Source: a virus (taxonomy: Duplodnaviria > Heunggongvirae > Uroviricota > Caudoviricetes). Taken from it: 64,000 nt of DNA. The notes under the pieces are model-generated. The model saw only the letters and a program-made list of their open reading frames with translations. It ran no database searches and was not told where the DNA came from. Location: the IMG/VR virus record IMGVR_UViG_2703718817_000003; one strand, given 5' to 3'. Below are positions 2,432 through 46,739 of the stretch, one piece after another. A program made the translations under genes and the position numbers. Every line of letters starts with the position of its first letter. Positions within the stretch are counted from its first letter, which is position 1.

Positions 2432-3126
2432 CGTTTGCTATCTTCCTCACACCCAAGATATGAAAGAGATGTAATTGCTTTTGCACGGAAACCACCAACC
2501 TTGCTAAGTGCGCTTTTAAGTGCGTCAAGGTCAGATTGTGATTTGATCATGAAAGTTAACCGCGCAATTCCAGACATAGAGTCAGAACCATTCACTGCGT
2601 TGTAGTGATATATGTATCGGGTGACTGATTGAGTCACGCCCTCCTGCTGGTGGTTTATATTGGCGTCCTGTCTTGTGTTGGCCTGCTCCAACTCTTCGAT
2701 ACGTTCAGCCATCGCAGCACACTCTTCAAAGTTGCTTAATGCTTTTCGCTCCGATTCAGCGCATTGTTTTTCCAGTTCTGCTATGCGCTTACCTCCATCC
2801 GCGATTACTCCCTCGTAATGCTCGCGCTGCTCGTTGAGTTTTGATTTTGCCGACTCCAGTTGTTTTGTTAGTTCCACAATACGGCAAACATCGTTGATAC
2901 GCGTTTCCTCTAATGCGTTGATCTCATCCAGTAGTGCCAAAGCAACCTTGGGATTAAAGGCAGCAATAAATTCAGCGTTGTTTTTCAGAACGTGTTGCGC
3001 AATGGCCTGACTACTTAGTCGGACCTCATAACCACGTGCGCCACGGTGTGGTTTATATGAGTCCCAGTCTCCCCACGTTGCTTTCACTGCCGCCTCACGC
3101 AGTGCCTGGTAATTAATTTCGCTCAC
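2428..3126 (-). CDS. Ea22-like phage protein
   Basis: N-terminus [13 protein letters not shown] typical of Ead/Ea22-like family; GTG start overlapping upstream stop (GTGA). Confidence 0.7.
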   Translation of the reverse strand: MSEINYQALREAAVKATWGDWDSYKPHRGARGYEVRLSSQAIAQHVLKNNAEFIAAFNPKVALALLDEINALEETRINDVCRIVELTKQLESAKSKLNEQREHYEGVIADGGKRIAELEKQCAESERKALSNFEECAAMAERIEELEQANTRQDANINHQQEGVTQSVTRYIYHYNAVNGSDSMSGIARLTFMIKSQSDLDALKSALSKVGGFRAKAITSLSYLGCEEDSKR

Positions 3127-21855: not shown

Positions 21856-22529
21856 AACGCAGAGCGCAAATCGTAGGGACCAAACACCCTGCCGGACTTA
21901 TGCGAGCGCAGGTCCGCATACTGCCTGACTGGAACGGTGTACCGGATGAAGACCTCCCATGGGCAGAGTATCAAATGCCTATCGGTAACGCCTTTACACC
22001 TACAGTCAGCGGCGATTTAGTCTGGGTAGAATTTCCTTATCTGGATGCTAAAGGCAGGATAGACACGCGCCGACCTTTAATCGTTGGTGCGGCGCAGGAT
22101 GCCCCAGGAGGCGTACCAAATGTGCCTCCGGAAGCCTCCGGACAAGGAAGTGGATGGTCGCCAGAAGAAGTTGATGGTGCTCCTGCCCGCCCCCAGTTTT
22201 CGGCGACTGAAGATTTTGTTATTCACCGAAACAATATCCTTGAGGTCAGAACGGCTGGCGGTGGCTATGAAATAGCAAACACCGCCGCAGGATCAAGGAT
22301 AGGGATGAACGAATCCGGCCAGATTTACATAATCGGCCCGGCGAATATAGTGCTTAATGCTGGAGGTGAGGTTAACGTCAAATCAAGCAGCAAAACCAAT
22401 GTATCCTCTGATGGAGACGTTAATGTAAAAGGCAGCAATGTAACCGTCGCCGCTGATGGTGATATAGCCCTGAAAGCTGGTGGCGCGCTAAAAGCAACAG
22501 CGAGCAATTTCTCCTTTGTGAAGGGATAG
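21852..22529 (+). CDS. baseplate central spike protein, gpV/Phage_base_V-like
   Basis: N-terminal OB-like region (GDLVWVEFPYLD...RRPLIVGA) and C-terminal beta-helix-like repeats (GGEVNVKSS..GDVNVKGSNVTVAADGDIALKAGG). Confidence 0.5.
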   Translation: MKRRAQIVGTKHPAGLMRAQVRILPDWNGVPDEDLPWAEYQMPIGNAFTPTVSGDLVWVEFPYLDAKGRIDTRRPLIVGAAQDAPGGVPNVPPEASGQGSGWSPEEVDGAPARPQFSATEDFVIHRNNILEVRTAGGGYEIANTAAGSRIGMNESGQIYIIGPANIVLNAGGEVNVKSSSKTNVSSDGDVNVKGSNVTVAADGDIALKAGGALKATASNFSFVKG

Positions 22530-24158: not shown

Positions 24159-25068
24159 TATTGGTGCTAAATTTATTTCTTATAGCGACAATCATCGTCC
24201 TGCGGCGGAAGCCACTATCAACCATATGCGACGTATTCGCTCGGAGGACGAATTTGATCGCCCCGTCTTTAAGTGGGTCGGCGGCAAATTTTCTGCACTG
24301 CCCATTATCTTCGAACACCTGCCCCACGGAAAACGGTTGATAGAACCTTTCGTTGGAGGTGGCGCTGTTTTCACTAATGCCGGATTTAAAAGCAACCTGC
24401 TGAACGATATCAATAATGACCTGATTAACTTCTATCAGACATTGCAGCGTGAAGGGCATTCTCTTATCACACTGGCATATCGTTTTTTTCAGGATTACAA
24501 CTCTGCTGATGCATTTTTGAATGTTCGCAATGCATTCAACAATGGTGCTTATGATTCTCTTCACCATGCGGCGGCGTTCCTGTATCTCAATCGTCATTGT
24601 TTTAATGGCGTCACTCGCTATAACCGTAAAGGAGAGTTCAACGTCGGATATGGAAAGCAGAAATCTCCCTACTTCCCTCTCGCGGAAATGGAGGCGTTCC
24701 TGGATGACGATATTTCAAAGTATTCGGAGTTTGTGTCCGGCGATTTTGCTGGTGTAATTGAGGCTGCCGGGAATGATGATGTGATTTTCTGCGATCCCCC
24801 CTATGAACCATTGCCTGACACTACCGGATTTACAAATTACTCAGGGCATAGCTTTAGGTTTGAAGATCAACAACGGCTGGTGTCACTGCTGGTGGATGCC
24901 CACAGACGCGGAGCGAAAATTGTGATAACAAACAGTGGTGCGCCTAACATTCGCGAACTTTACGTTGGCAATGGCTTCAAGGTGTATCCTATGCCATCCC
25001 GTCGCTCTGTATCCTGTAAAGCATCAACGCGAATGATAGCTAACGACATTATAGCCACGCTTAATTAA
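24151..25068 (+). CDS. dam: DNA adenine methyltransferase (Dam family)
   Basis: FKWVGGK, EPFVGGGAVF, DPPY motifs and overall similarity to E. coli Dam; GTG start with AAGGAGGG SD. Confidence 0.85.
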   Translation: MADIGAKFISYSDNHRPAAEATINHMRRIRSEDEFDRPVFKWVGGKFSALPIIFEHLPHGKRLIEPFVGGGAVFTNAGFKSNLLNDINNDLINFYQTLQREGHSLITLAYRFFQDYNSADAFLNVRNAFNNGAYDSLHHAAAFLYLNRHCFNGVTRYNRKGEFNVGYGKQKSPYFPLAEMEAFLDDDISKYSEFVSGDFAGVIEAAGNDDVIFCDPPYEPLPDTTGFTNYSGHSFRFEDQQRLVSLLVDAHRRGAKIVITNSGAPNIRELYVGNGFKVYPMPSRRSVSCKASTRMIANDIIATLN

Positions 25069-25070
25069 GA

Positions 25071-25092
25071 AAAGCCCCATATGGGGCTTTTA
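25071..25092. terminator. bidirectional hairpin terminator between dam and parG-like gene
   Basis: AAGCCCC-ATAT-GGGGCTT hairpin with flanking A/T runs. Confidence 0.6.
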
Positions 25093-25109
25093 TAACATCA
25101 AACAAGCAC

Positions 25110-25200
25110 CGTTACGGTACACTAATAACACCATTCTGGTACTAAAAAGGAACCAAAGCAGCCTCAAAATAACACATGGAACCAAAACGGTGTTATTCCG
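25110..25200. repeat. centromere-like repeats (GGTAC/GGAACCAAA family) downstream of parA/RHH operon
   Basis: GGTACTAAAAAGGAACCAAAG and GGAACCAAAACGG; related repeats recur at 26140-26365 on the other side of the operon. Confidence 0.4.
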
Positions 25201-25203
25201 GCG

Positions 25204-25491
25204 TCATTTTGTATCCTCAGACTCTGCAAGCATGAGGATAGCATGGCGGATCATATTCAATTTGCTGCGATTATGCTTTTTGCTTAACGCATCAAGTACC
25301 TGGTACTCGTATTCATTGAAGCCAACACGAATGGATTTAAAATCACGTGGGGCGTCCTTATCGAGCACTTTGTTGTCTTCTGGTTGCTCACCCGGCACCA
25401 AATCAGCTTTGCTGGCAAAAGCCTCAATTCGGCGTTCAAGATCGAGGTCTTTTACTTCGGGGGCTTTTACCGATTTACGAGGCTTAATCAC
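25204..25491 (-). CDS. ParG-like ribbon-helix-helix partition protein
   Basis: 95 aa downstream of ParA-type ATPase; C-terminal RHH-like segment (KLNMIRHAILMLAE). Confidence 0.5.
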   Translation of the reverse strand: MIKPRKSVKAPEVKDLDLERRIEAFASKADLVPGEQPEDNKVLDKDAPRDFKSIRVGFNEYEYQVLDALSKKHNRSKLNMIRHAILMLAESEDTK

Positions 25492-26786: not shown

Positions 26787-27746
26787 TCAACCGATAGATT
26801 TTAGACCATAGACAAGAGCAAGTTGTGGATCATCAGCAACGAAAAACCTATCGTCACGAATGTTTACCTGCTCACGGATAGCATCAGCAACAAGCGGCGC
26901 GCCGCCACCAATGACCATAACATGCGTGTATCCTTTGAAATCACTGATCACATCCAGTACGCGTGTACGGAGTCGTTCTATGCTTGACGAAATGGCTTTC
27001 TTAACATCATCAATAGCAGACGGATCGTTAATATTGTCGGTCAAATAATCCTCATCATCACGATTAATGATTAATTGATCGACATTATAATTAGAGGTTT
27101 CGGTATTCGCTTTTGCAAGTGCCTGTCTGACCTCTTTAGTTACCAGCGAAACGCCGAGATTAGAATCGCCAAATACGCGAGAAACGGCGGTCATTTGCCC
27201 GGCGACCATCGACACATCCAGAGTAGTCCCACCAAGATCAACAATAAGCACAGAATGCGCTGGCACAAGGCTGTCGCACAGACCGATCCCTGCGGGTATT
27301 GACTCCGGGCGCACAGTCACTTTTTTGATAGTAAAAACCTGACCTTTGTTAAGGGTGACTGGTCGCATCAGGCTGGCCTTTTTCCGCTCAATATTTTTCA
27401 TGTTGTATTGTGCGTCGTCGTCATAAAACTCTGCCAGTGGCAACGTGACAACTATTTCCACTTCTTGAGGCTCAATGCCACTTGTAAGCAGGGCATGATG
27501 AACAGCAAGCACATTAAGCGGGCTGTATTGCCATTCAACGTTATTCGTCGGCAGCACATCCGGCGAGATCAAGTCATATGAATATTTTTCGTCATCAATG
27601 ATGTAGTTAAACGGCTTTCCTGCGCCAAATGTGGCGGACCATCCACGTTTAAAACTGTTCGGACAGATATGGGTTCGAGTTTCCCCGTCTTGTTCCCACA
27701 GCATTTTGATATTGGTAGAACCATCGTCGATAAAAATGCGCATCAT
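26787..27746 (-). CDS. parM: ParM/StbA actin-like plasmid segregation ATPase
   Basis: MMRIFIDDGSTNIKMLW..., SPNSFKR, NVLAVHHALLTSG, LIVDLGGTTLD, GYTHVMVIGGGA closely match R1 ParM; start at 27746 with GGAG SD. Confidence 0.85.
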   Translation of the reverse strand: MMRIFIDDGSTNIKMLWEQDGETRTHICPNSFKRGWSATFGAGKPFNYIIDDEKYSYDLISPDVLPTNNVEWQYSPLNVLAVHHALLTSGIEPQEVEIVVTLPLAEFYDDDAQYNMKNIERKKASLMRPVTLNKGQVFTIKKVTVRPESIPAGIGLCDSLVPAHSVLIVDLGGTTLDVSMVAGQMTAVSRVFGDSNLGVSLVTKEVRQALAKANTETSNYNVDQLIINRDDEDYLTDNINDPSAIDDVKKAISSSIERLRTRVLDVISDFKGYTHVMVIGGGAPLVADAIREQVNIRDDRFFVADDPQLALVYGLKSIG

Positions 27747-27842
27747 ATTGCTCCACTTCTGAGACACATTTGAGAAAGAATTGAATTTTATATGAGAAAA
27801 CAAAATAAGACCAGAAGTTAGATAGCGTAAAAAGCATCAAAC

Positions 27843-27970
27843 TAGAGACGTAAAAGAGACACAAAAGAGACTTAGATGATACATGATGTACCCACGATAC
27901 CCATTTGAGACAAATCAGAGACAAATATGAGAAGTAAGAAATCTGAAGAGTGAAAATCACAAAGTGGAGA
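27843..27970. repeat. parC-like centromere: two clusters of ~11-bp direct repeats (core GAGAC) flanking promoter
   Basis: TAGAGACGTAA AAGAGACACAA AAGAGACTTAG ... TTTGAGACAAA TCAGAGACAAA TATGAGAAGTA at 11-bp periodicity upstream of parM. Confidence 0.65.
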
Positions 27971-27995
27971 AGATTTAAGAAAAAGGAGGTGTTAG

Positions 27996-28280
27996 ATGAG
28001 TGCAATAGCGACCAGTGACACAGTTTGTTCTGGTCATGGAGGATTCCCTCCGCGACCTGTAGCAGAAACAGTTTCCTGGTTTACCGTAAATGGAAAGCCA
28101 GTGGTTGTAGATGGGGGAGCGTTCCCCAGCCATACAGACGGAAATAGCGCGCACCCCGGATCAGCCGTATCGACGCGCTCATGGTTTGCAATAGGCGGAA
28201 AAGGAGTTGTTTGTGTGGGAGATCCCCTTTCTTGTGGCTCAGTCATCGCCAATGGTGAGGCAATTTTTCAGGTGTCATAA
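27996..28280 (+). CDS. PAAR-like spike-tip domain protein
   Basis: 94 aa with repeated G-K-x-V-x-V / GD..xCG motifs (FTVNGKPVVVDGG, IGGKGVVCVGDPLSCG); AGGAGG SD. Confidence 0.45.
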   Translation: MSAIATSDTVCSGHGGFPPRPVAETVSWFTVNGKPVVVDGGAFPSHTDGNSAHPGSAVSTRSWFAIGGKGVVCVGDPLSCGSVIANGEAIFQVS

Positions 28281-29074
28281 TGCTTGATTCAATCGCTGAA
28301 GTTAATGCATTCAAAATTCTAAATGCATCAGGCACAACTACGCCTGCATCTATCACGCTAAGTAAAACAGCGTCATCCAATGCCAGTTCTCTGGAAGAGA
28401 ATATCCAGGCTCTTATCCTGAAGGATAAAGCATACCCGGCGTCGGTGGTTTCATGGGTCAATCAGCTTTCTGTCTTTTCAGAACAACTGAAAACTGTCAG
28501 TGCAGAAGCAACCAATTTAGCCGACTCGCTGTCTCCGTATACTTCGCCAACTGAATTACTTCAGATGAAAATTGGCTGGGAATGTTACGTCAAAGGTAAT
28601 GAGTTATCTCCTGCGCCAGAATTTGCTCTCGTAACAGTTATGGGAGATACCCTGCATCCGCAATCGCTTATTGACGCGTTGGCTGCATTTGAACTGGTGC
28701 CAATCACTTCAGCCATGGCCGCTATAAATGCAAAAGTTCAGGCGTCAAGCGGGGAGGCTTCAGGCAACGGAAGTTCCACCGGAACAACACAGCAACCAGC
28801 ACTAACAGAAGAAGAGATCAAAGCACTAAAAGACGCTGTGGAAGCAGCAACAGAACAAATAAATGCAATAAACAACACGAGCAGTAGTCTCTCAACACTT
28901 GCACAGCAAGTTAAGGACTCTACCGGAAAAGCCAAACAGGGACTGGAAAATGCTGTAGCTATTACGTTAACCGGTTCTCTACTGGGCGATGAAGTAATGA
29001 GTCCGGCAATCAGTTTGATCATGCCACAAGGTGTAATCGATGCGCTCCAAAGCAACACTAAAAAGGAATCATAA
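28280..29074 (+). CDS. hypothetical protein coupled to PAAR-like gene
   Basis: 264 aa, start overlaps upstream stop; Ser/Thr/Ala-rich, no enzymatic motif. Confidence 0.45.
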   Translation: MLDSIAEVNAFKILNASGTTTPASITLSKTASSNASSLEENIQALILKDKAYPASVVSWVNQLSVFSEQLKTVSAEATNLADSLSPYTSPTELLQMKIGWECYVKGNELSPAPEFALVTVMGDTLHPQSLIDALAAFELVPITSAMAAINAKVQASSGEASGNGSSTGTTQQPALTEEEIKALKDAVEAATEQINAINNTSSSLSTLAQQVKDSTGKAKQGLENAVAITLTGSLLGDEVMSPAISLIMPQGVIDALQSNTKKES

Positions 29075-29144
29075 CCACACCATTTAAGCCCATAAATGGT
29101 TACAAATTGGTACACATATCACACCAACAAAAAATCTGAAGAGG

Positions 29145-29603
29145 ATGGTTTTGAAAAAGATAATTTTGATAGTAGTTGCGCTTTTAGCCATTTATGGAAT
29201 TTACCGTACTACGGCGGCAGTTATCGATCACATCAGGTATATCCGTTCCCTGGAAGACTCAAAATCACAACTTGAAAGCGAGAACAACACGCTTTCTACC
29301 GCATTGCAGTTAAGTGAAAAATCGCGATCTGCCATGATGGCTGAAAACGAAAGAATTAAAACACTGGAGAAGGAGTACCAGCGCAAAACAGCAGAACTGA
29401 ATACCAGCCTGATCAAACAACGGGAGGAAAGCCAGAATGAAATCAATCGTCTTGAAACTGCGTTACGTAATGCCGGGGTTAATGATGTGCGTGTGCCTGA
29501 TGACGTTATCAGGATGCAGCGGGAACGGGCAAAAGAAATCAATCAGCGTGCCAATGCAAATTACCGTAGAAGCCACCAGCAAACCGCAGGGAAATCTGAT
29601 TGA
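29145..29603 (+). CDS. i-spanin (Rz-like)
   Basis: N-terminal TM helix (IILIVVALLAIYGIY) then long coiled-coil periplasmic domain. Confidence 0.65.
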   Translation: MVLKKIILIVVALLAIYGIYRTTAAVIDHIRYIRSLEDSKSQLESENNTLSTALQLSEKSRSAMMAENERIKTLEKEYQRKTAELNTSLIKQREESQNEINRLETALRNAGVNDVRVPDDVIRMQRERAKEINQRANANYRRSHQQTAGKSD

Positions 29604-29769
29604 TTATACCCCTTGCATAGTGCCAGAGGACACACCTGTGCTGTTAAACAAGTATCCGGCATACACTGAACAGTTATTCAGCACTATCGATGAATGCAAC
29701 CAACGAAATGCACTGAATAACCAAAGGAACAGGGAAATTTGGGAAGGGAAGGGGGATCACGGCTCCTGA
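29437..29769 (+). CDS. o-spanin (Rz1-like lipoprotein), overlapped with i-spanin in another frame
   Basis: Signal peptide with lipobox LMTLSGC; starts inside i-spanin gene and extends past it; GGGAGG SD. Confidence 0.6.
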   Translation: MKSIVLKLRYVMPGLMMCVCLMTLSGCSGNGQKKSISVPMQITVEATSKPQGNLIDYTPCIVPEDTPVLLNKYPAYTEQLFSTIDECNQRNALNNQRNREIWEGKGDHGS

Positions 29770-30215
29770 AGCCAGATATCCTGGCTGTCAGCTTCTTCAA
29801 AACCGTGACAGACGTTAAAGTCACTCAAGCGATACTGGCGCTGACGGCCTCTATTTCGCTCATGCCAATGCATATATCCACCGGCAAATGCCAGCGGACA
29901 ATCGCTATAGTCGATGTAGCCAATACCATTACCCAAACGCGCTTCGCGCGCCCCGGCTTTCCAGGACAGTAGAAAAGAGTCACGATCTGCCAGCATGACT
30001 ACAAAATCATCTGGATCGCCTATGCAGTGAAGAATGCCTGCCTTGCATAACTGTTTGAGTGCCTTAGACTGGCTCAGGATGTCTTCACCGTAATACTGAA
30101 AACAATCATCAACAATAGCGGGATAGCCAGCGGGTGGATTCAGGCTGGTTGGTATAGCTGACGCGATAGCCAGCATTAAACGATATTGTGTTTTCGATGG
30201 GTTCGCGTGACTCAT
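29757..30215 (-). CDS. hypothetical protein
   Basis: Start set at MSHANPSK (30215) with GAGGA SD; ORF-track frame 29757..30239. Confidence 0.4.
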   Translation of the reverse strand: MSHANPSKTQYRLMLAIASAIPTSLNPPAGYPAIVDDCFQYYGEDILSQSKALKQLCKAGILHCIGDPDDFVVMLADRDSFLLSWKAGAREARLGNGIGYIDYSDCPLAFAGGYMHWHERNRGRQRQYRLSDFNVCHGFEEADSQDIWLQEP

Positions 30216-30226
30216 GTTTCCTCTAC

Positions 30227-30619
30227 TCACTGTCTCCATGCATTTTTCAGCTCCGGAATATCAGCCATTTCCACTAACTTCCGAAGCCCCGCGCTGACCT
30301 TCCCATTACCAACCGCAGCAAGCCAATCCCTTACTGACTTCGGCATATAAAGAGTGGTCGTTACAGGATCTTCCACTCTTACAGGCGTGCCAATTTGAGG
30401 CCACTTAACAGATGCCAAAACGTCAGAAGGCGGGGTAAGCGCGGGAACATTAAGAATAGCCTTTCCTGAATGGAGAATCACGATTCGTTCAGCCAGGGAA
30501 AGAATGTCTCTTTCAGTAAGGATTGATGACAGTTGAGCTTCTACAAGGCATCTGCTGCTTGTATTCAGAGAATGGCTTTTAGCACCATTTTTGTATGAAA
30601 CGAAGATCTTGTACGCCAT
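30227..30619 (-). CDS. hypothetical protein, candidate regulator adjacent to operator cluster
   Basis: 130 aa; transcribed divergently from head gene; C-terminal helical segment (VRDWLAAVGNGKVSAGLRKLVEM). Confidence 0.4.
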   Translation of the reverse strand: MAYKIFVSYKNGAKSHSLNTSSRCLVEAQLSSILTERDILSLAERIVILHSGKAILNVPALTPPSDVLASVKWPQIGTPVRVEDPVTTTLYMPKSVRDWLAAVGNGKVSAGLRKLVEMADIPELKNAWRQ

Positions 30620-37907: not shown

Positions 37908-38203
37908 CTTGAGGGCAATTTTTACACCAGCTATTTACACCAGTGATGGCATTTTTTACACACCACAACAAAATCAATGAGTTACATTCAAAAAACACTT
38001 AACAGGTGTGCTATAAAAATAGCTATAACATACGATGCTATCTGAGGGTGATTTTTACACATTACTTATTAATCAATAAATTACAAATGATGTTAGCCGT
38101 TAAAGCTCCAACCAACTCACTAATGGTGTAAGAATTGCCCTCAATCTCCCATCTTTAAGGGCAAATCCTACACCTACAGAGAGGTGTAGAAATTGCCCTT
38201 AAG
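37908..38203. repeat. iteron cluster downstream of repE (incC-like), mixed orientation
   Basis: Five copies of TGAGGGCAA(A/T)NNTTACACC-type 19-21-bp repeats at 37908, 38042, 38125(inv), 38156, 38183(inv). Confidence 0.7.
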
Positions 38204-38954
38204 ACTGCTGATAGGTGAATTTTATTTTTGTAACTCTGCCACCTTCTGTAACCTCTGAGAAAACTATTTTCATTTTTGTGTTTTTTTCGATTTCAGCTAC
38301 AGCTTTTGCCAGAAAGCTTCTCTTAAATTCGGCGTACCGTTGATAGCTTTTGGGAAGACCATAACGCTCCCGCATCCATTCAACGCCAAGTATAGCGAAG
38401 CCGCTCCCATCATCCTTTCTATACTGGCATAAGGACTCATAAAGCCGCATAGAATAAGGGTTTGTCAGGCGAGACACTTCAGTAAAATTCAGCCTCGTGA
38501 ACCTCTTATCAAGCAGAGTAAAAAACGGCATGAGATATGGATTCAGATGAATAATGTAAGTCCCCCGGCGTGGTGAGTAAGCATCCTTAATCATCCAGGG
38601 ATAAGACTCATAACTGTCTTCTGATTCGGTTGATTCATCAGGGTTATATATCGTGACTTTCTTCTCACTAAGTCCGGAGATAGCTTTACGAATATCCTTG
38701 CTGGCTTCAGCAGAGGGCAAATTATACATCTCTGCATATTCGTTGACCGTCAACTCACAGGCTCCTGAACCAAGAACGCCATCCTTAGAAGCATAGCGAA
38801 GTCTTCCCACCACAATAAACAACAGTCGCTTTTGGTCGCGTGTCAGGTGATAAGCCGCCTCTGTGATCTCATTGGCCTGCGCCAAGCTACGGCTAATTGG
38901 TGTCGCTGATTCAATCAGACTGACGGCTTTTGCCGTTAATTCCGCTCTGTTCAT
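38199..38954 (-). CDS. repE: RepE-type (Rep_3 family) iteron-binding plasmid replication initiator
   Basis: 251 aa from ATG 38954; similarity to F RepE (ITEAAYHLTRDQKRLLFIVV, AEASKDIRKAISGLSEKKVTIY, YESYPWMIKDAYSPRRGTYIIHLNPYLMPFF, NPYSMRLYESLCQYRKDDGSGF). Confidence 0.85.
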   Translation of the reverse strand: MNRAELTAKAVSLIESATPISRSLAQANEITEAAYHLTRDQKRLLFIVVGRLRYASKDGVLGSGACELTVNEYAEMYNLPSAEASKDIRKAISGLSEKKVTIYNPDESTESEDSYESYPWMIKDAYSPRRGTYIIHLNPYLMPFFTLLDKRFTRLNFTEVSRLTNPYSMRLYESLCQYRKDDGSGFAILGVEWMRERYGLPKSYQRYAEFKRSFLAKAVAEIEKNTKMKIVFSEVTEGGRVTKIKFTYQQS

Positions 38955-38976
38955 AACCCTGTGTGATCCTTCAAAT

Positions 38977-39239
38977 GGTGAGGGCAATTTTTACATCACT
39001 TTGAGGGCAATTACTACACCTTTTGAGGGCAAATCTTACACCTGCTGAGGGCAAATCTTACACCTCAATAGCTTAATTGAGGGCAAATCTTACACCTTGG
39101 TCCTCTACAAGCCCCGCCACACCTGACCTCCGCGATGCCTAAAAAGGATCTAAAAAGGATTAAAAAGAGAAAAAGGTTTATAAAAATACTCTGTGGATAT
39201 GTGAATTGCGTCACTTAAGGTGTAAAAATCACCCTCAAT
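38977..39239. repeat. origin-like region: five direct iterons at ~22-bp spacing, DnaA-box-like site, A-rich repeats, GATC pairs
   Basis: Iterons at 38977, 39001, 39023, 39046, 39077 (TTGAGGGCAAATCTTACACC), inverted copy 39214-39239, TGTGGATAT at 39193, TAAAAAGGA repeats 39140-39175. Confidence 0.7.
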
Positions 39240-39340
39240 AGTTGCTGTTCGATCGACAAAGATCCTTATTCAATACTCCCACAAATCACACACTCCCTAT
39301 CCTCTGAAAAACTAACTGAACCTAGCTTTCGGAGGAATCC

Positions 39341-44085: not shown

Positions 44086-44460
44086 ATGCTTTATGAGATT
44101 GATGCCCGCCTTCAGACAAACGAGAGCGGGGTGGTGATCGCTGAAGGCGACACAAACGCCTGGATAGCCCGACTCGATGAATGGCTACGGACACCAAATG
44201 GCAGCGTTTACGGATTGCCGTCATGGGGGAATCCGATGGAGGAGTTCAAACACGAACCCTTCGGTTCTGATACGTCACACATTGTTGAAGTGGCGATTGA
44301 AGCGCGAATGATGACGAAGCTACAGCAGGACTTACCAGGGCTTGGACTCCAGGCGATCCGCTGCGCGACTGTCTCTGAAGACCAGTTACTAATTAGCTTC
44401 CAGGCAAAAGGAGGCACCGTGAATGTTGTTATGCAGAAAGATAGCGGAGATACAGCGTGA
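44086..44460 (+). CDS. baseplate wedge protein, gpW/gp25-like
   Basis: WLRTPNGSVYGLPSWGN motif resembling P2 gpW (ILRTPVGSRVMRRDYGS); 124 aa. Confidence 0.6.
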   Translation: MLYEIDARLQTNESGVVIAEGDTNAWIARLDEWLRTPNGSVYGLPSWGNPMEEFKHEPFGSDTSHIVEVAIEARMMTKLQQDLPGLGLQAIRCATVSEDQLLISFQAKGGTVNVVMQKDSGDTA

Positions 44461-45887
44461 GTATTACCGAATTACTGGACAAGTTTAATGCCAAGCTGAA
44501 CGAAAACCCCTGGTGGGCGCGATTTGTAAACAGCCAGTTTATTCAAATGCAGTCCGTTTTGGGCGCGCAGATTGTTTATATTGCGCGTACATTTGCAAGC
44601 CGTGCACTTACAGAAGGATTCATTTCCACCGCGACGCGTAGAGCAAGTATTCTCGCGGCAGCGGAAGACCGTGGCTATGTCGGTCGTTTGGTCGATGCGT
44701 CATACGGCACTGTTTCCATCACCAACAAAACCGACAGGGATATTACTCTACCCGGAGGGGCTGAATTACTGACAAGTGACCAGACACCAATTGCAACCAG
44801 CAGTAGTGTTGTTATCCCTGCTGGTGAAACAGTACCCGGCATAGAAGTAAAACAGCATGAAGCAGTCAGCGTAACGTTCGACGTGGTGCAAGAAACACCA
44901 TTCTTGACGCTGTTACTTTCCCGTGAGTTAACAGCAGAAGTCGCCAGCCTGGAAGTTGTCGTGATAACTAATGGTGTCGAGGAAAAATGGACACATAACC
45001 CCCTGTTCCGCATGTCCAGGGATAACAGTAAACATTATGTGTTGGTTTATAAGCCGACAGAACAGATCGGCGTGCGCTTCGGTGATGGATCAATGGGGAT
45101 GATGCCAGCGGCAGGGAGTCAGGTACGCATTGACATTATGGCAAGCCTCGGTGATTACACGCTGGCTGAAGGCCAGAAACTTGAACCAGCAGGGAACATC
45201 TCCGGGTATGTCGAATCACTGGAAGTAAAAACCGATTCGATCATTTCTGGCGGTGGTGGCATGGAAACTACCGAGGAAACCCGAAACAGGGCGCAGTATT
45301 ATGTGGCCTACGATGAGCAGGTTGTTTGGGGCGGTGATTACCGCCAGTTCATTCAGAACGTGGTCAGTGGCACGTCATGGCTTAACGTGTGGGGGGAGGC
45401 GCTACAGGAGAAAATAACGGGCTTTGATGTGCGTAATATCAACAAAATTTTCTTTTGTGGGCATAAGCCCGGCGTAACACAGGAAGCTCTGAAAACAGAG
45501 ATATTATCAGCCCTTGAGAGTATCCCTAATGAGCTGAATAAGAAGTTCGAATACGTCGCCACCAATGAACAGCCGTTCAACATCAAATTTACCGGTATCG
45601 TAAAAAAGAGTGTGCTGGTGGATGACGCGCTAACTGCAATTAAAGCGGCACTGGAGGAGAACTTCGGTAAAGACTCCATGTCATTTAACCAGCTATTGCA
45701 GAGTGATGACGACTCACAGCAATGTTATGCACAGGTCAAAGTAAAAGATATCTGGCGAGTAATCGAATCGCTGGATATGTTCCTGTCTTATGACGTGGCT
45801 ACGCAGAACATGAAAGAAGCAGTGTACTTTAATGATTTTGTTTATCTGGACGTGGAATCATCAACGTTCAGCATAACCTATCCGTAA
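44457..45887 (+). CDS. baseplate J-like protein
   Basis: 476 aa directly after gpW-like gene with GTGA overlap; W-J-I order. Confidence 0.55.
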   Translation: MSITELLDKFNAKLNENPWWARFVNSQFIQMQSVLGAQIVYIARTFASRALTEGFISTATRRASILAAAEDRGYVGRLVDASYGTVSITNKTDRDITLPGGAELLTSDQTPIATSSSVVIPAGETVPGIEVKQHEAVSVTFDVVQETPFLTLLLSRELTAEVASLEVVVITNGVEEKWTHNPLFRMSRDNSKHYVLVYKPTEQIGVRFGDGSMGMMPAAGSQVRIDIMASLGDYTLAEGQKLEPAGNISGYVESLEVKTDSIISGGGGMETTEETRNRAQYYVAYDEQVVWGGDYRQFIQNVVSGTSWLNVWGEALQEKITGFDVRNINKIFFCGHKPGVTQEALKTEILSALESIPNELNKKFEYVATNEQPFNIKFTGIVKKSVLVDDALTAIKAALEENFGKDSMSFNQLLQSDDDSQQCYAQVKVKDIWRVIESLDMFLSYDVATQNMKEAVYFNDFVYLDVESSTFSITYP

Positions 45888-45896
45888 GAGGTCACA

Positions 45897-46739
45897 ATGC
45901 AGAATAACTGGCTAAAAGAGCGTCTGACGCAATTTAAACAGGATTCTAAATTGTGGGCCGCCTTTGTTGATACGATTCAGGACGTGTGGAATGAATCGGT
46001 TGAACCTATTCTCACGCGAATAAGCAACCGTAAATCGTTTTTCACAATGGCAAGCGAGGATATGGACACTCGCATTGCTGAATATGGTCGTTTCTTTGTT
46101 ATCACAGAAACGGACAAAACACGCAGGCCAATGCTATTAGCTCAACGACTGGATGAGGTGCACTTCAAAGGAACAGTAAGGCCGATAGAGCAAACGTTCT
46201 GGCGTGAATTTGGCACAATCCCCGTCTCATGGGAACCTTTGTATGCGCCTGTCGATACAGAAAAACATCCCTATGGTTCATTCTTCGCGACTGCAAATGA
46301 AATACCGACTGCTCAGGCACAATATGGTGAGTTTTTCCTGACATCCAGAGGGCTGGTTGTCGTCAACCAAAATAAGCTGTATCGAGCTTATGATAGCGAT
46401 GACAGAGACGTTGCTGTACAGAAGCTACTTGCTGATTTTGATACGGTTATAGCGCCGCTATTGCCATTGCATATCGTGTTTGATGGTGTTTCTTTCCAGT
46501 TGAGCGCAACATTGCCGGAAATGGCGGAGATCCTGAATTGCTTATCTGCGGAAGTGTCCTTTATTGAGGGGGTGTACACGACGCAAGAGATGGTCGATGA
46601 ACTATCTATTAGCGATACGATCATTCAATTAGACGGCATCCAGTTCGCAGGAAGGCCAGACCGGACGACGGAAAGAGTGCTTCATCTCGATGAACTCCCG
46701 CTCGACGCCTGGGCGCTGGATTATAATTTTGCACCTTAG
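45897..46739 (+). CDS. baseplate/tail protein I-like
   Basis: 280 aa following J-like gene, position-based. Confidence 0.4.
   Translation: MQNNWLKERLTQFKQDSKLWAAFVDTIQDVWNESVEPILTRISNRKSFFTMASEDMDTRIAEYGRFFVITETDKTRRPMLLAQRLDEVHFKGTVRPIEQTFWREFGTIPVSWEPLYAPVDTEKHPYGSFFATANEIPTAQAQYGEFFLTSRGLVVVNQNKLYRAYDSDDRDVAVQKLLADFDTVIAPLLPLHIVFDGVSFQLSATLPEMAEILNCLSAEVSFIEGVYTTQEMVDELSISDTIIQLDGIQFAGRPDRTTERVLHLDELPLDAWALDYNFAP

What the first reader, a model, noticed from the sequence alone, without database searches (positions are those of the whole stretch)
27996..29074. PAAR-like small protein coupled to an unknown 264-aa protein, separated from the baseplate genes
The 94-aa product has the repeated Gly-Lys/Gly-Asp beta-strand pattern of PAAR spike-tip proteins, yet it lies between parMRC and the spanins, about 5 kb from the gpV-like spike gene and 16 kb from the W-J-I baseplate genes. 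Its stop overlaps the start of a Ser/Thr-rich protein of unknown function. PAAR proteins commonly carry or recruit effectors in secretion systems; a phage PAAR with a coupled partner could deliver a protein on the virion spike.
Basis: inference. Interest (0 to 1): 0.45.

Follow-up and report, generated by a model that had tools for sequence, protein, structure and literature searches.

The report
Phage spike-tip PAAR and tripod genes

Summary
A 94-aa ORF (27996-28280) and a 264-aa ORF (28280-29074) overlap by one base (TAATG). They lie between parMRC and a spanin pair, 5.5 kb from the gp5-like spike gene and 16 kb from the wedge genes.

The window is a D6-like, P1-family phage-plasmid.
- **94-aa protein:** a PAAR protein. 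It passes the Pfam threshold and matches the solved P1 UpfC over its full length (E=6e-36).
- **264-aa protein:** a full-length homologue of P1 UpfB. It is all-alpha and has no Pfam family or solved relative.

A 2026 cryo-EM study of P1 places UpfC as the monomeric cap on the gp5 spike. It assigns UpfB, at medium resolution, to a tripod anchored on UpfC. Both genes are dispensable for P1 plaque formation.

The arrangement away from the baseplate genes, upfC-upfB-spanins beside the plasmid maintenance genes, is conserved in all 8 loci examined.

New here:
- UpfB is the fastest-evolving of 19 compared genes. Its alleles are shuffled by recombination starting exactly at the upfC/upfB junction, while its termini stay conserved.
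- A 12-nt late-promoter-like motif precedes upfC.

Verdict: real, ordinary for this phage family, already known.

The parts
27954..27965 (+). Candidate late-promoter or activator motif AAATCACAAAGT, 31 nt upstream of the upfC start codon
   Evidence: The pattern AAATMACAMWST has 10 exact copies in the window against 0.2 expected. Each lies just upstream of the first gene of a late block. It is conserved at the same position in D6, upstream of orf57 and of the capsid gene. DNA similarity to D6 resumes exactly here. Function is inferred.
27983..27991 (+). Shine-Dalgarno sequence AAGGAGGTG of upfC
   Evidence: Read directly from the sequence.
27996..28280 (+). upfC homologue: 94-aa PAAR spike-tip protein
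   Evidence: Pfam PF05488 scores 30 bits (cut-off 27) and phrog_281 gives 1.7e-28. P1 UpfC chain 9vyi_A matches with E=6e-36 over residues 1-94, and T4 gp5.4 with E=7e-7. H14, H46, H53 and C80 are invariant across 10 phage PAARs. Identity is 88% to D6 and 57% to P1. Omega is 0.03-0.06.
28280..29074 (+). upfB homologue: 264-aa all-alpha protein, counterpart of the P1 'tripod' reported on the PAAR tip
   Evidence: phrog_1559 gives 6.6e-101. tblastn to P1 UpfB gives 31% identity over 97% of the length, E=2e-19. The AlphaFold2 model has pLDDT 87.5 and pTM 0.79, is made of helices only, and has a disordered Gly/Ser loop at 158-170. There is no sequence or fold relative in the PDB. It always follows upfC within 12 nt.
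29145..29603 (+). Rz-like i-spanin, downstream in the same orientation with no terminator predicted in between
   Evidence: phrog_214 Rz-like spanin, E=8.6e-15. N-terminal hydrophobic segment followed by a coiled-coil-like sequence. Same position as P1 ppfA.
29437..29769 (+). Rz1-like o-spanin candidate, overlapping the Rz-like gene in another frame
   Evidence: LSGC lipobox in the translation. Weak tblastn similarity to the region of P1 mlp, which is annotated as Rz-like spanin.
21900..22529 (+). gp5-like trimeric spike, the predicted docking partner of the PAAR protein
   Evidence: P1 Gp5 chain 9vzk_q matches with E=2.3e-49. phrog_430 baseplate hub/spike, E=1e-37.

Best explanation
The two genes are the upfC and upfB orthologues of a D6-like, P1-family phage-plasmid. 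They encode the distal end of the tail's cell-puncturing device.

**UpfC.** The 94-aa PAAR protein folds into a small cone, probably holding a metal ion through H14, H46, H53 and C80. It caps the blunt beta-helix end of the trimeric gp5-like spike encoded 5.5 kb upstream.

**UpfB.** The 264-aa protein is an elongated helical bundle. Its copies attach to the faces of the PAAR cone and project beyond the baseplate as a tripod.

**Expression.** Both are made late, from one operon that continues into the spanin genes. Translation is coupled through the TAATG overlap.

**Action.** On sheath contraction the spike, cap and tripod are the first parts driven into the host outer membrane.

**What is shown and what is inferred.**
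- Shown here: homology, fold class, synteny, purifying selection, and the unusually fast, recombination-driven diversification of UpfB.
- Shown elsewhere, for P1: UpfC sits on gp5.
- Reported elsewhere at medium resolution: UpfB forms the tripod on UpfC.
- Inferred: the same assembly forms in this phage. The conserved N- and C-terminal segments of UpfB form the UpfC-binding end. The variable shaft and loop face the host envelope, as an accessory, non-essential penetration or contact module.
For: **PAAR membership and full-length match to the solved P1 UpfC:**. Invariant His/Cys.

**The cognate spike is present:** it matches P1 Gp5 in baseplate entry 9vzk.

**UpfB homology:** full length to P1 UpfB and to phrog_1559.

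**UpfB fold:** confident all-alpha model.

**P1 cryo-EM:** a spike complex of trimeric gp5 plus monomeric UpfC, with a UpfB tripod anchored at the tip (PMC12810830). This is restated in PMC13611949.

**Synteny:** strict upfC-upfB adjacency, with a gap of 12 nt or less, followed by spanins in 8 of 8 loci from Escherichia, Salmonella-type D6, P1, Cronobacter, Enterobacter, Citrobacter, Pantoea and an IMG/VR contig.

**Late expression:** a late-block motif lies directly upstream.

**UpfB is maintained by selection:** omega is 0.16-0.18.

**UpfB evolves fast:**
- dN of 0.337 against D6 is the highest of 19 genes.
- Nucleotide identity between two backbones falls from 100% to 81% exactly at the upfC/upfB junction.
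- Residues 1-14, 86-118 and 223-260 stay conserved.
Against: - No experiment exists on this phage.
- In P1 the UpfB tripod was modelled with AlphaFold3 into medium-resolution density, not built de novo.
- The two papers differ on stoichiometry: 'three trimeric' against 'three copies'.
- The P1 virion LC-MS/MS study does not mention UpfB in its main text. However, it also missed UpfC, gp5 and gp26.
- upfC and upfB are dispensable for P1 plaque formation, so any role in penetration is accessory.
- I could not run a complex prediction, and I could not inspect model coordinates to verify that the conserved segments sit at one end.
Confidence: 0.8

Rival explanations
1. UpfB is a cargo or effector in the T6SS sense. 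It rides on the PAAR tip only in order to be delivered into the periplasm or membrane. There it acts after release, for example as a membrane-active helical bundle that helps open a channel or interferes with the host.
Confidence: 0.1
2. UpfB is not a virion component. It is a non-structural helper, either a chaperone or assembly factor for the PAAR cap or a lysis-associated protein co-expressed with the spanins. On this view the P1 tripod density belongs to something else.
For: UpfB is not mentioned among the P1 virion proteins found by LC-MS/MS. The P1 assignment rests on fitting a predicted model to medium-resolution density. The gene sits directly upstream of the spanins. There is a very weak phrog_2975 Rz-like hit, E=0.43.
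Against: The LC-MS/MS study also missed the bona fide tip proteins gp5 and UpfC. UpfB has no signal peptide, lipobox or transmembrane segment. Its adjacency and translational coupling are to upfC, not to the spanins. The predicted trimer fitted the P1 density well, according to the authors.
Confidence: 0.08

Closest known systems
Phage P1 UpfC/UpfB spike-tip complex (PDB 9vyi, 9vzk; PMC12810830)
   Same: - Orthologous proteins of the same lengths: 94 aa, and about 260 aa.
- The same gene order, upfC-upfB-Rz-Rz1, beside the plasmid maintenance genes.
- The same gp5-type spike without a lysozyme domain.
   Different: - UpfC is 57% identical and UpfB only about 30% identical.
- The plasmid neighbours are parMRC here, against oriR/repA/parAB in P1.
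- The upstream regulatory sequence differs: the P1-type late promoter box is absent, and a D6-group 12-nt motif is present.
Phage D6 orf57/orf56 (NC_050154)
   Same: The same phage group and identical synteny. The D6 record already notes 'similar to P1 upfC / upfB'.
   Different: UpfC is 88% identical but UpfB only 58%. The divergence is concentrated in residues 15-85 and 119-222, so this is a distinct UpfB allele. That allele is shared at 98% or more with a protein cluster of 169 member sequences, and the surrounding 3-kb region recurs at 98.4-99.2% nucleotide identity in 7 plasmids of E. coli and E. marmotae.
T4 gp5.4 PAAR tip on gp5 (PDB 5iv5, 4ku0)
   Same: A monomeric PAAR cone capping a trimeric beta-helical spike. 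It is non-essential for plaque formation.
   Different: T4 gp5 carries a lysozyme domain. T4 has no UpfB homologue, and a gp5.1-gp5.4 contact has only been modelled (PMC13611949). The T4 gene lies inside the baseplate cluster.
T6SS VgrG-PAAR-effector assemblies
   Same: A PAAR cap on a trimeric spike serves as a docking point for a further protein encoded immediately downstream.
   Different: The partner here has no toxin or adaptor domain, and it is a fixed structural appendage of a virion. No immunity gene is present.
Canonical myophage V-PAAR-W-J-I baseplate clusters (e.g. Shewanella phage Spp001, Pseudomonas phage ZRG1)
   Same: A homologous PAAR protein, 31-34% identical.
   Different: In those phages PAAR sits between the spike and wedge genes and has no UpfB-like neighbour. 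In the P1 family the gene is displaced and paired with upfB.

Membership tests
PAAR spike-tip proteins (Pfam PF05488) | Profile match above the curated gathering threshold | tested here: met
   30.0 bits against a cut-off of 27. phrog_281 'PAAR motif' gives E=1.7e-28.
PAAR spike-tip proteins (Pfam PF05488) | Full-length similarity to PAAR proteins solved on a spike tip | tested here: met
   P1 UpfC 9vyi_A matches residues 1-94 to 1-94 with E=6e-36. T4 gp5.4 5iv5 gives E=7e-7. Vibrio-type 4jiv_D gives E=1.6e-4.
PAAR spike-tip proteins (Pfam PF05488) | Conserved His/Cys set near the apex (metal site) | tested here: met
   H14, H46, H53 and C80 are invariant in an alignment of 10 phage PAARs that includes three from outside the P1 family. 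That they bind metal is taken from knowledge of solved PAAR proteins and was not tested.
PAAR spike-tip proteins (Pfam PF05488) | A cognate trimeric beta-helical spike encoded in the same genome | tested here: met
   Window 21900-22529 matches P1 Gp5 of baseplate entry 9vzk with E=2.3e-49.
PAAR spike-tip proteins (Pfam PF05488) | Physically caps the spike in the particle | not testable with these tools
   Shown for P1 by cryo-EM. Needs virion structure or proteomics for this phage.
UpfB 'tripod' family (phrog_1559) | Full-length homology to P1 UpfB | tested here: met
   phrog_1559 matches residues 1-261 against profile positions 1-263 of 263, E=6.6e-101. tblastn to P1 UpfB gives 97% coverage, 31% identity and E=2e-19. 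The family is small: 46 representatives at 50% clustering, all about 250-265 aa.
UpfB 'tripod' family (phrog_1559) | Encoded immediately downstream of the PAAR gene | tested here: met
   8 of 8 loci, with a gap of 0-12 nt. There is a 1-nt overlap here.
UpfB 'tripod' family (phrog_1559) | Elongated alpha-helical fold with a loop at one end | tested here: met
   The AlphaFold2 model has pLDDT 87.5. It has ten helices, including a 58-residue helix, and a disordered loop at 158-170.
UpfB 'tripod' family (phrog_1559) | Binds the PAAR cone and forms a tripod under the baseplate | not testable with these tools
   Reported for P1 from medium-resolution density plus an AlphaFold3 model.
T6SS-type PAAR-associated effectors or adaptors (toxin domains, DUF4123/Tap, DUF1795/Eag, DUF2169) | Partner carries a recognisable toxin or adaptor domain | tested here: not met
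   No Pfam family reaches its threshold for the 264-aa protein; the best is E=0.009, well below cut-off. No homologue has a precomputed Pfam domain.
Spanins (considered for the 264-aa protein because of its neighbours) | N-terminal membrane anchor or lipobox | tested here: not met
   No lipobox or transmembrane segment. The protein is acidic, with net charge -13. The only spanin hit is phrog_2975 at E=0.43.

The most novel reading that the evidence does not exclude
The UpfB tripod is a second, previously unrecognised specificity module at the very tip of P1-family tails.

- Its conserved termini dock on the PAAR cone.
- Its shaft and Gly/Ser loop diversify and are exchanged by recombination between otherwise near-identical phage-plasmids, as happens with tail-fibre tips.
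- This would occur because the shaft and loop contact a variable host envelope component, or evade an envelope-level exclusion system.
- Its dispensability on laboratory K-12/B strains would then hide a host-range or efficiency role on natural hosts.
Probability: 0.25. Interest if true: 0.5.

Novelty: already known. Interest (0 to 1): 0.22.

Why it matters
The result settles the annotation of two 'hypothetical' genes that recur in at least 121 sequenced E. coli, Salmonella and Shigella phage-plasmids in PLSDB. In the nearest plasmid record, the gene table available here does not even list the PAAR gene.

The pair shows that a phage PAAR cap can serve as a docking platform for an extra protein, as it does in secretion systems. 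That point has already been made for P1.

The one forward-looking element is that UpfB is the most rapidly diversifying and recombining protein of the region, yet it remains under purifying selection. It is therefore a reasonable candidate for an overlooked determinant of infection efficiency or host range in P1-like phage-plasmids. These elements matter as carriers of resistance genes and as transduction tools.

Tried and rejected
**Promoter searches**
- A search for the P1-type late promoter (AAGTNACTT-N4-TANNNT, derived from annotated LPs) found nothing near upfC. It gave 2 hits elsewhere against 0.8 expected.
- The sigma-70 scan found no promoter in 27700-30300, and its three terminator-like sites lie inside genes at chance level.

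**Structure and sequence searches for UpfB**
- PDB sequence search: no hit.
- Foldseek against the PDB: nothing below E=0.04.
- BFVD gave DUF7217 phage proteins at TM about 0.47. I could not obtain those sequences or their gene neighbourhoods, so the lead is left open.

**Wider searches**
- The profile search with the wide alignment found no members outside Enterobacterales phage-plasmid-sized contigs and no Pfam link.
- The search for related loci found nothing for two distant members in viral contigs.

**Selection analysis**
- dN/dS between the window and D6 is unusable because synonymous sites are saturated. I used closer D6-group loci instead.
- Gene-wide omega of 0.17 gives no evidence of positive selection. 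Site-level tests were not done.

**Literature**
- The P1 genome paper and the D6 genome paper are not held in the library. I therefore cannot say whether the 12-nt motif has already been described.

**Readings rejected**
- A lysis function for the 264-aa protein.
- A plasmid-maintenance function.
- A T6SS-like toxin or adaptor identity.

The reasons are given in the membership tests.

Full report
**1. The observation**

The window carries a 94-aa ORF at 27996-28280 and a 264-aa ORF at 28280-29074, both on the + strand. The TAA stop of the first gene (28278-28280) shares its last base with the ATG of the second. The first gene has a strong ribosome-binding site, AAGGAGGTG, at 27983-27991. The second has AGGTG at 28270-28274.

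The stated surroundings are correct:
- parM and parR lie upstream on the other strand. Two clusters of 11-bp GAGAC-N6 iterons at 27845-27932 look like parC.
- An Rz-like i-spanin gene and an overlapping ORF with an LSGC lipobox lie downstream.
- The gp5-like spike gene lies at 21900-22529, and the wedge genes at 44086-46739.

**2. What the element is**

The region is 99% identical to several roughly 90-kb non-mobilizable plasmids of E. coli and E. marmotae. It is about 86% identical, in pieces, to phage D6. D6 is a P1-related plasmid prophage.

The D6 record already labels its orf57 and orf56 as 'similar to P1 upfC' and 'similar to P1 upfB'. In P1 the order is upfC-upfB-ppfA-mlp(Rz-like)-upfA, next to oriR, repA and parAB. 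The position beside plasmid maintenance genes and spanins is therefore a family trait.

I checked eight loci: the twin plasmid, D6, P1, Cronobacter phage JK004, contigs from Enterobacter, Citrobacter and Pantoea, and an IMG/VR contig. In all eight, upfC is followed within 12 nt by upfB and then by spanin-like genes.

Other myophages with related PAAR proteins differ. They keep the gene in the canonical spike-PAAR-W-J-I slot and have no UpfB-like neighbour.

**3. The 94-aa protein**

- It passes the Pfam PAAR gathering threshold (30 against 27 bits) and matches phrog_281 with E=1.7e-28.
- It aligns end to end with the solved P1 UpfC chain 9vyi_A (E=6e-36) and with T4 gp5.4 (E=7e-7).
- H14, H46, H53 and C80 are invariant across ten phage PAARs. 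This is the pattern expected for the apical metal site.
- Its docking partner is present: the gp5-like protein matches P1 Gp5 of baseplate entry 9vzk with E=2e-49.

**4. The 264-aa protein**

- It matches phrog_1559 (unknown function) over its whole length with E=6.6e-101.
- It matches P1 UpfB by tblastn with 31% identity over 97% of the length.
- An exhaustive HMMER scan of 1.84 billion cluster representatives finds only 46 relatives, nearly all 245-265 aa. The named hits come from Enterobacterales, on contigs the size of phage-plasmids. None has a Pfam domain.
- AlphaFold2 with a 17-sequence alignment gives a confident all-helical model (pLDDT 87.5, pTM 0.79). It has a 58-residue helix and a disordered Gly/Ser-rich loop at 158-170.
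- The protein is acidic (net charge -13), 21.6% Ser+Thr, and has no membrane anchor.

**5. What is already known**

The P1 record already notes the resemblance of UpfC to T4 ORF 5.4.

Gonzales et al. 2022 (PMC9024508) assigned UpfC as the gp5.4-like spike tip by HHpred. They found that delta-upfC plaques normally. They did not detect UpfC, gp5 or gp26 by virion LC-MS/MS, and UpfB is not discussed.

A CRISPRi screen scored both upfB and upfC as non-essential (PMC10695390).

The 2026 cryo-EM study of P1 (PMC12810830) built UpfC as the monomeric cap on trimeric gp5. It described UpfB as a novel tripod anchored to that cap, by fitting an AlphaFold3 trimer into medium-resolution density. It speculated that gp5, UpfC and UpfB form the membrane-piercing apparatus. 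A later paper repeats this and notes that the role of the tripod is unclear (PMC13611949).

It is not new. The effector reading is not supported by any domain evidence.

**6. What this analysis adds**

*(a) UpfB evolves unusually fast.*
- Against D6, UpfC is 88% identical and UpfB 58%.
- The non-synonymous divergence of UpfB (dN 0.337) is the highest of 19 genes compared. Most of the others lie between 0.02 and 0.16, UpfC is at 0.063, and only ParR comes close at 0.294.
- The divergence is confined to residues 15-85 and 119-222. Residues 1-14, 86-118 and 223-260 stay conserved.

*(b) UpfB is still constrained, but its alleles are shuffled.*
- Among four closer D6-group loci, UpfB has omega 0.16-0.18. 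UpfC has 0.03-0.06 and ParM 0.02. UpfB is therefore constrained, but several-fold less so than its neighbours.
- The synonymous divergence of UpfB exceeds that of its flanks.
- In one pair of loci, UpfC is identical (dS 0.04) while UpfB is 80% identical (dS 0.70). Nucleotide identity drops from 100% to 81% exactly at the gene junction.
- This is the signature of allele exchange by recombination. I infer, but could not verify from coordinates, that the conserved segments form the UpfC-binding end and that the variable shaft and loop point away from the phage.

*(c) A shared motif precedes upfC.*
- A 12-nt motif, AAATMACAMWST, occurs 10 times in the window against 0.2 expected.
- Each copy lies just upstream of the first gene of a morphogenesis or lysis block, and one ends 31 nt before the upfC ATG.
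- It is conserved at the corresponding sites in D6 and absent upstream of P1 upfC.
- The pattern was derived by eye from eight of these sites, so the count is partly circular. Two further window sites and the two D6 sites are independent.
- It is a plausible late promoter or activator site, consistent with late co-expression of upfC, upfB and the spanins.

**7. Mechanism and confidence**

The best-supported account, at confidence about 0.8, runs as follows:
- UpfC caps the gp5-like spike.
- UpfB units dock on the cap and form a tripod.
- The assembly is the leading edge of the tail during contraction.
- UpfB is an accessory, non-essential, rapidly diversifying tip module.

Two rivals remain: UpfB as a delivered effector (about 0.1) and UpfB as a non-virion helper (about 0.08). 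Virion proteomics and mutant structures would separate all three.

**8. Verdict**

The feature is real and correctly interpreted. It is ordinary for P1-family phage-plasmids and already described for P1. Interest is low. The open question is what the variable tripod does on natural hosts.

Noticed in passing
window 2533-2544(-), 15059, 19251, 27954, 30709, 39283, 46796, 51436, 55226, 58952 (+); L001 8962 and 11736: The 12-nt motif AAATMACAMWST occurs 10 times against 0.2 expected. Each copy lies shortly upstream of the first gene of a late (structural or lysis) block. It is conserved in D6 and differs from the P1 late promoter box AAGTTACTT-N4-TACAAT. It is a candidate late promoter or activator site for the D6 group. 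I could not check whether the D6 genome paper already describes it.
   Followed up: partly
window 27845-27881 and 27907-27932: Two clusters of 11-bp-spaced GAGAC-N6 iterons lie between parM and upfC. This is the likely parC centromere of the ParMR system. This stretch is not conserved with D6 at the DNA level, and ParR is also only 59% identical to its D6 counterpart.
   Followed up: partly
window 25068-25204: No glnS (glutaminyl-tRNA synthetase) gene is present here or anywhere else in the window. D6 has it between dmt and the parA-like operon. A population study states that glnS is present in all D6-like genomes (PMC6799933).
   Followed up: partly
L004 20997-21281 (NZ_LR890273.1), equivalent to window 27996-28280: The gene table of the 99%-identical plasmid lists no CDS for the PAAR gene, and the other six plasmids at 98.4-99.2% identity show no PAAR label either. 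D6-allele plasmids carry 'PAAR domain-containing protein'. This may be an annotation gap, or a gap in the PLSDB table.
   Followed up: no
L014 vs L016, upfC/upfB junction (L014 position 4001): Two D6-group phage-plasmids have identical UpfC proteins but UpfB proteins that are only 80% identical. The breakpoint lies exactly at the gene junction, so upfB alleles move between backbones by recombination.
   Followed up: yes
window 28280-29074 (protein): This UpfB allele contains no arginine at all (15 Lys, 0 Arg) and a single Cys and a single His. The D6-type alleles do contain Arg. Unexplained.
   Followed up: no
model of window 28280-29071; BFVD hits A0A5P8D468 and A0A3G2YS51: The best viral fold matches are DUF7217 proteins of Pectobacterium phage Wc4 and Serratia phage vB_SmaA_3M (TM 0.46-0.52, about 11% identity). 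Whether these sit next to spike or PAAR genes was not checked.
   Followed up: no
window 38988-39340: Repeated TTGAGGGCAAATCTTACACC-type iterons lie in the 38988-39340 intergenic region, beside the minus-strand ORF 38199-38987 whose counterpart in the 99%-identical plasmid is annotated as a RepB-family replication initiator, and upstream of the 39341 ORF. This is the probable plasmid origin.
   Followed up: no
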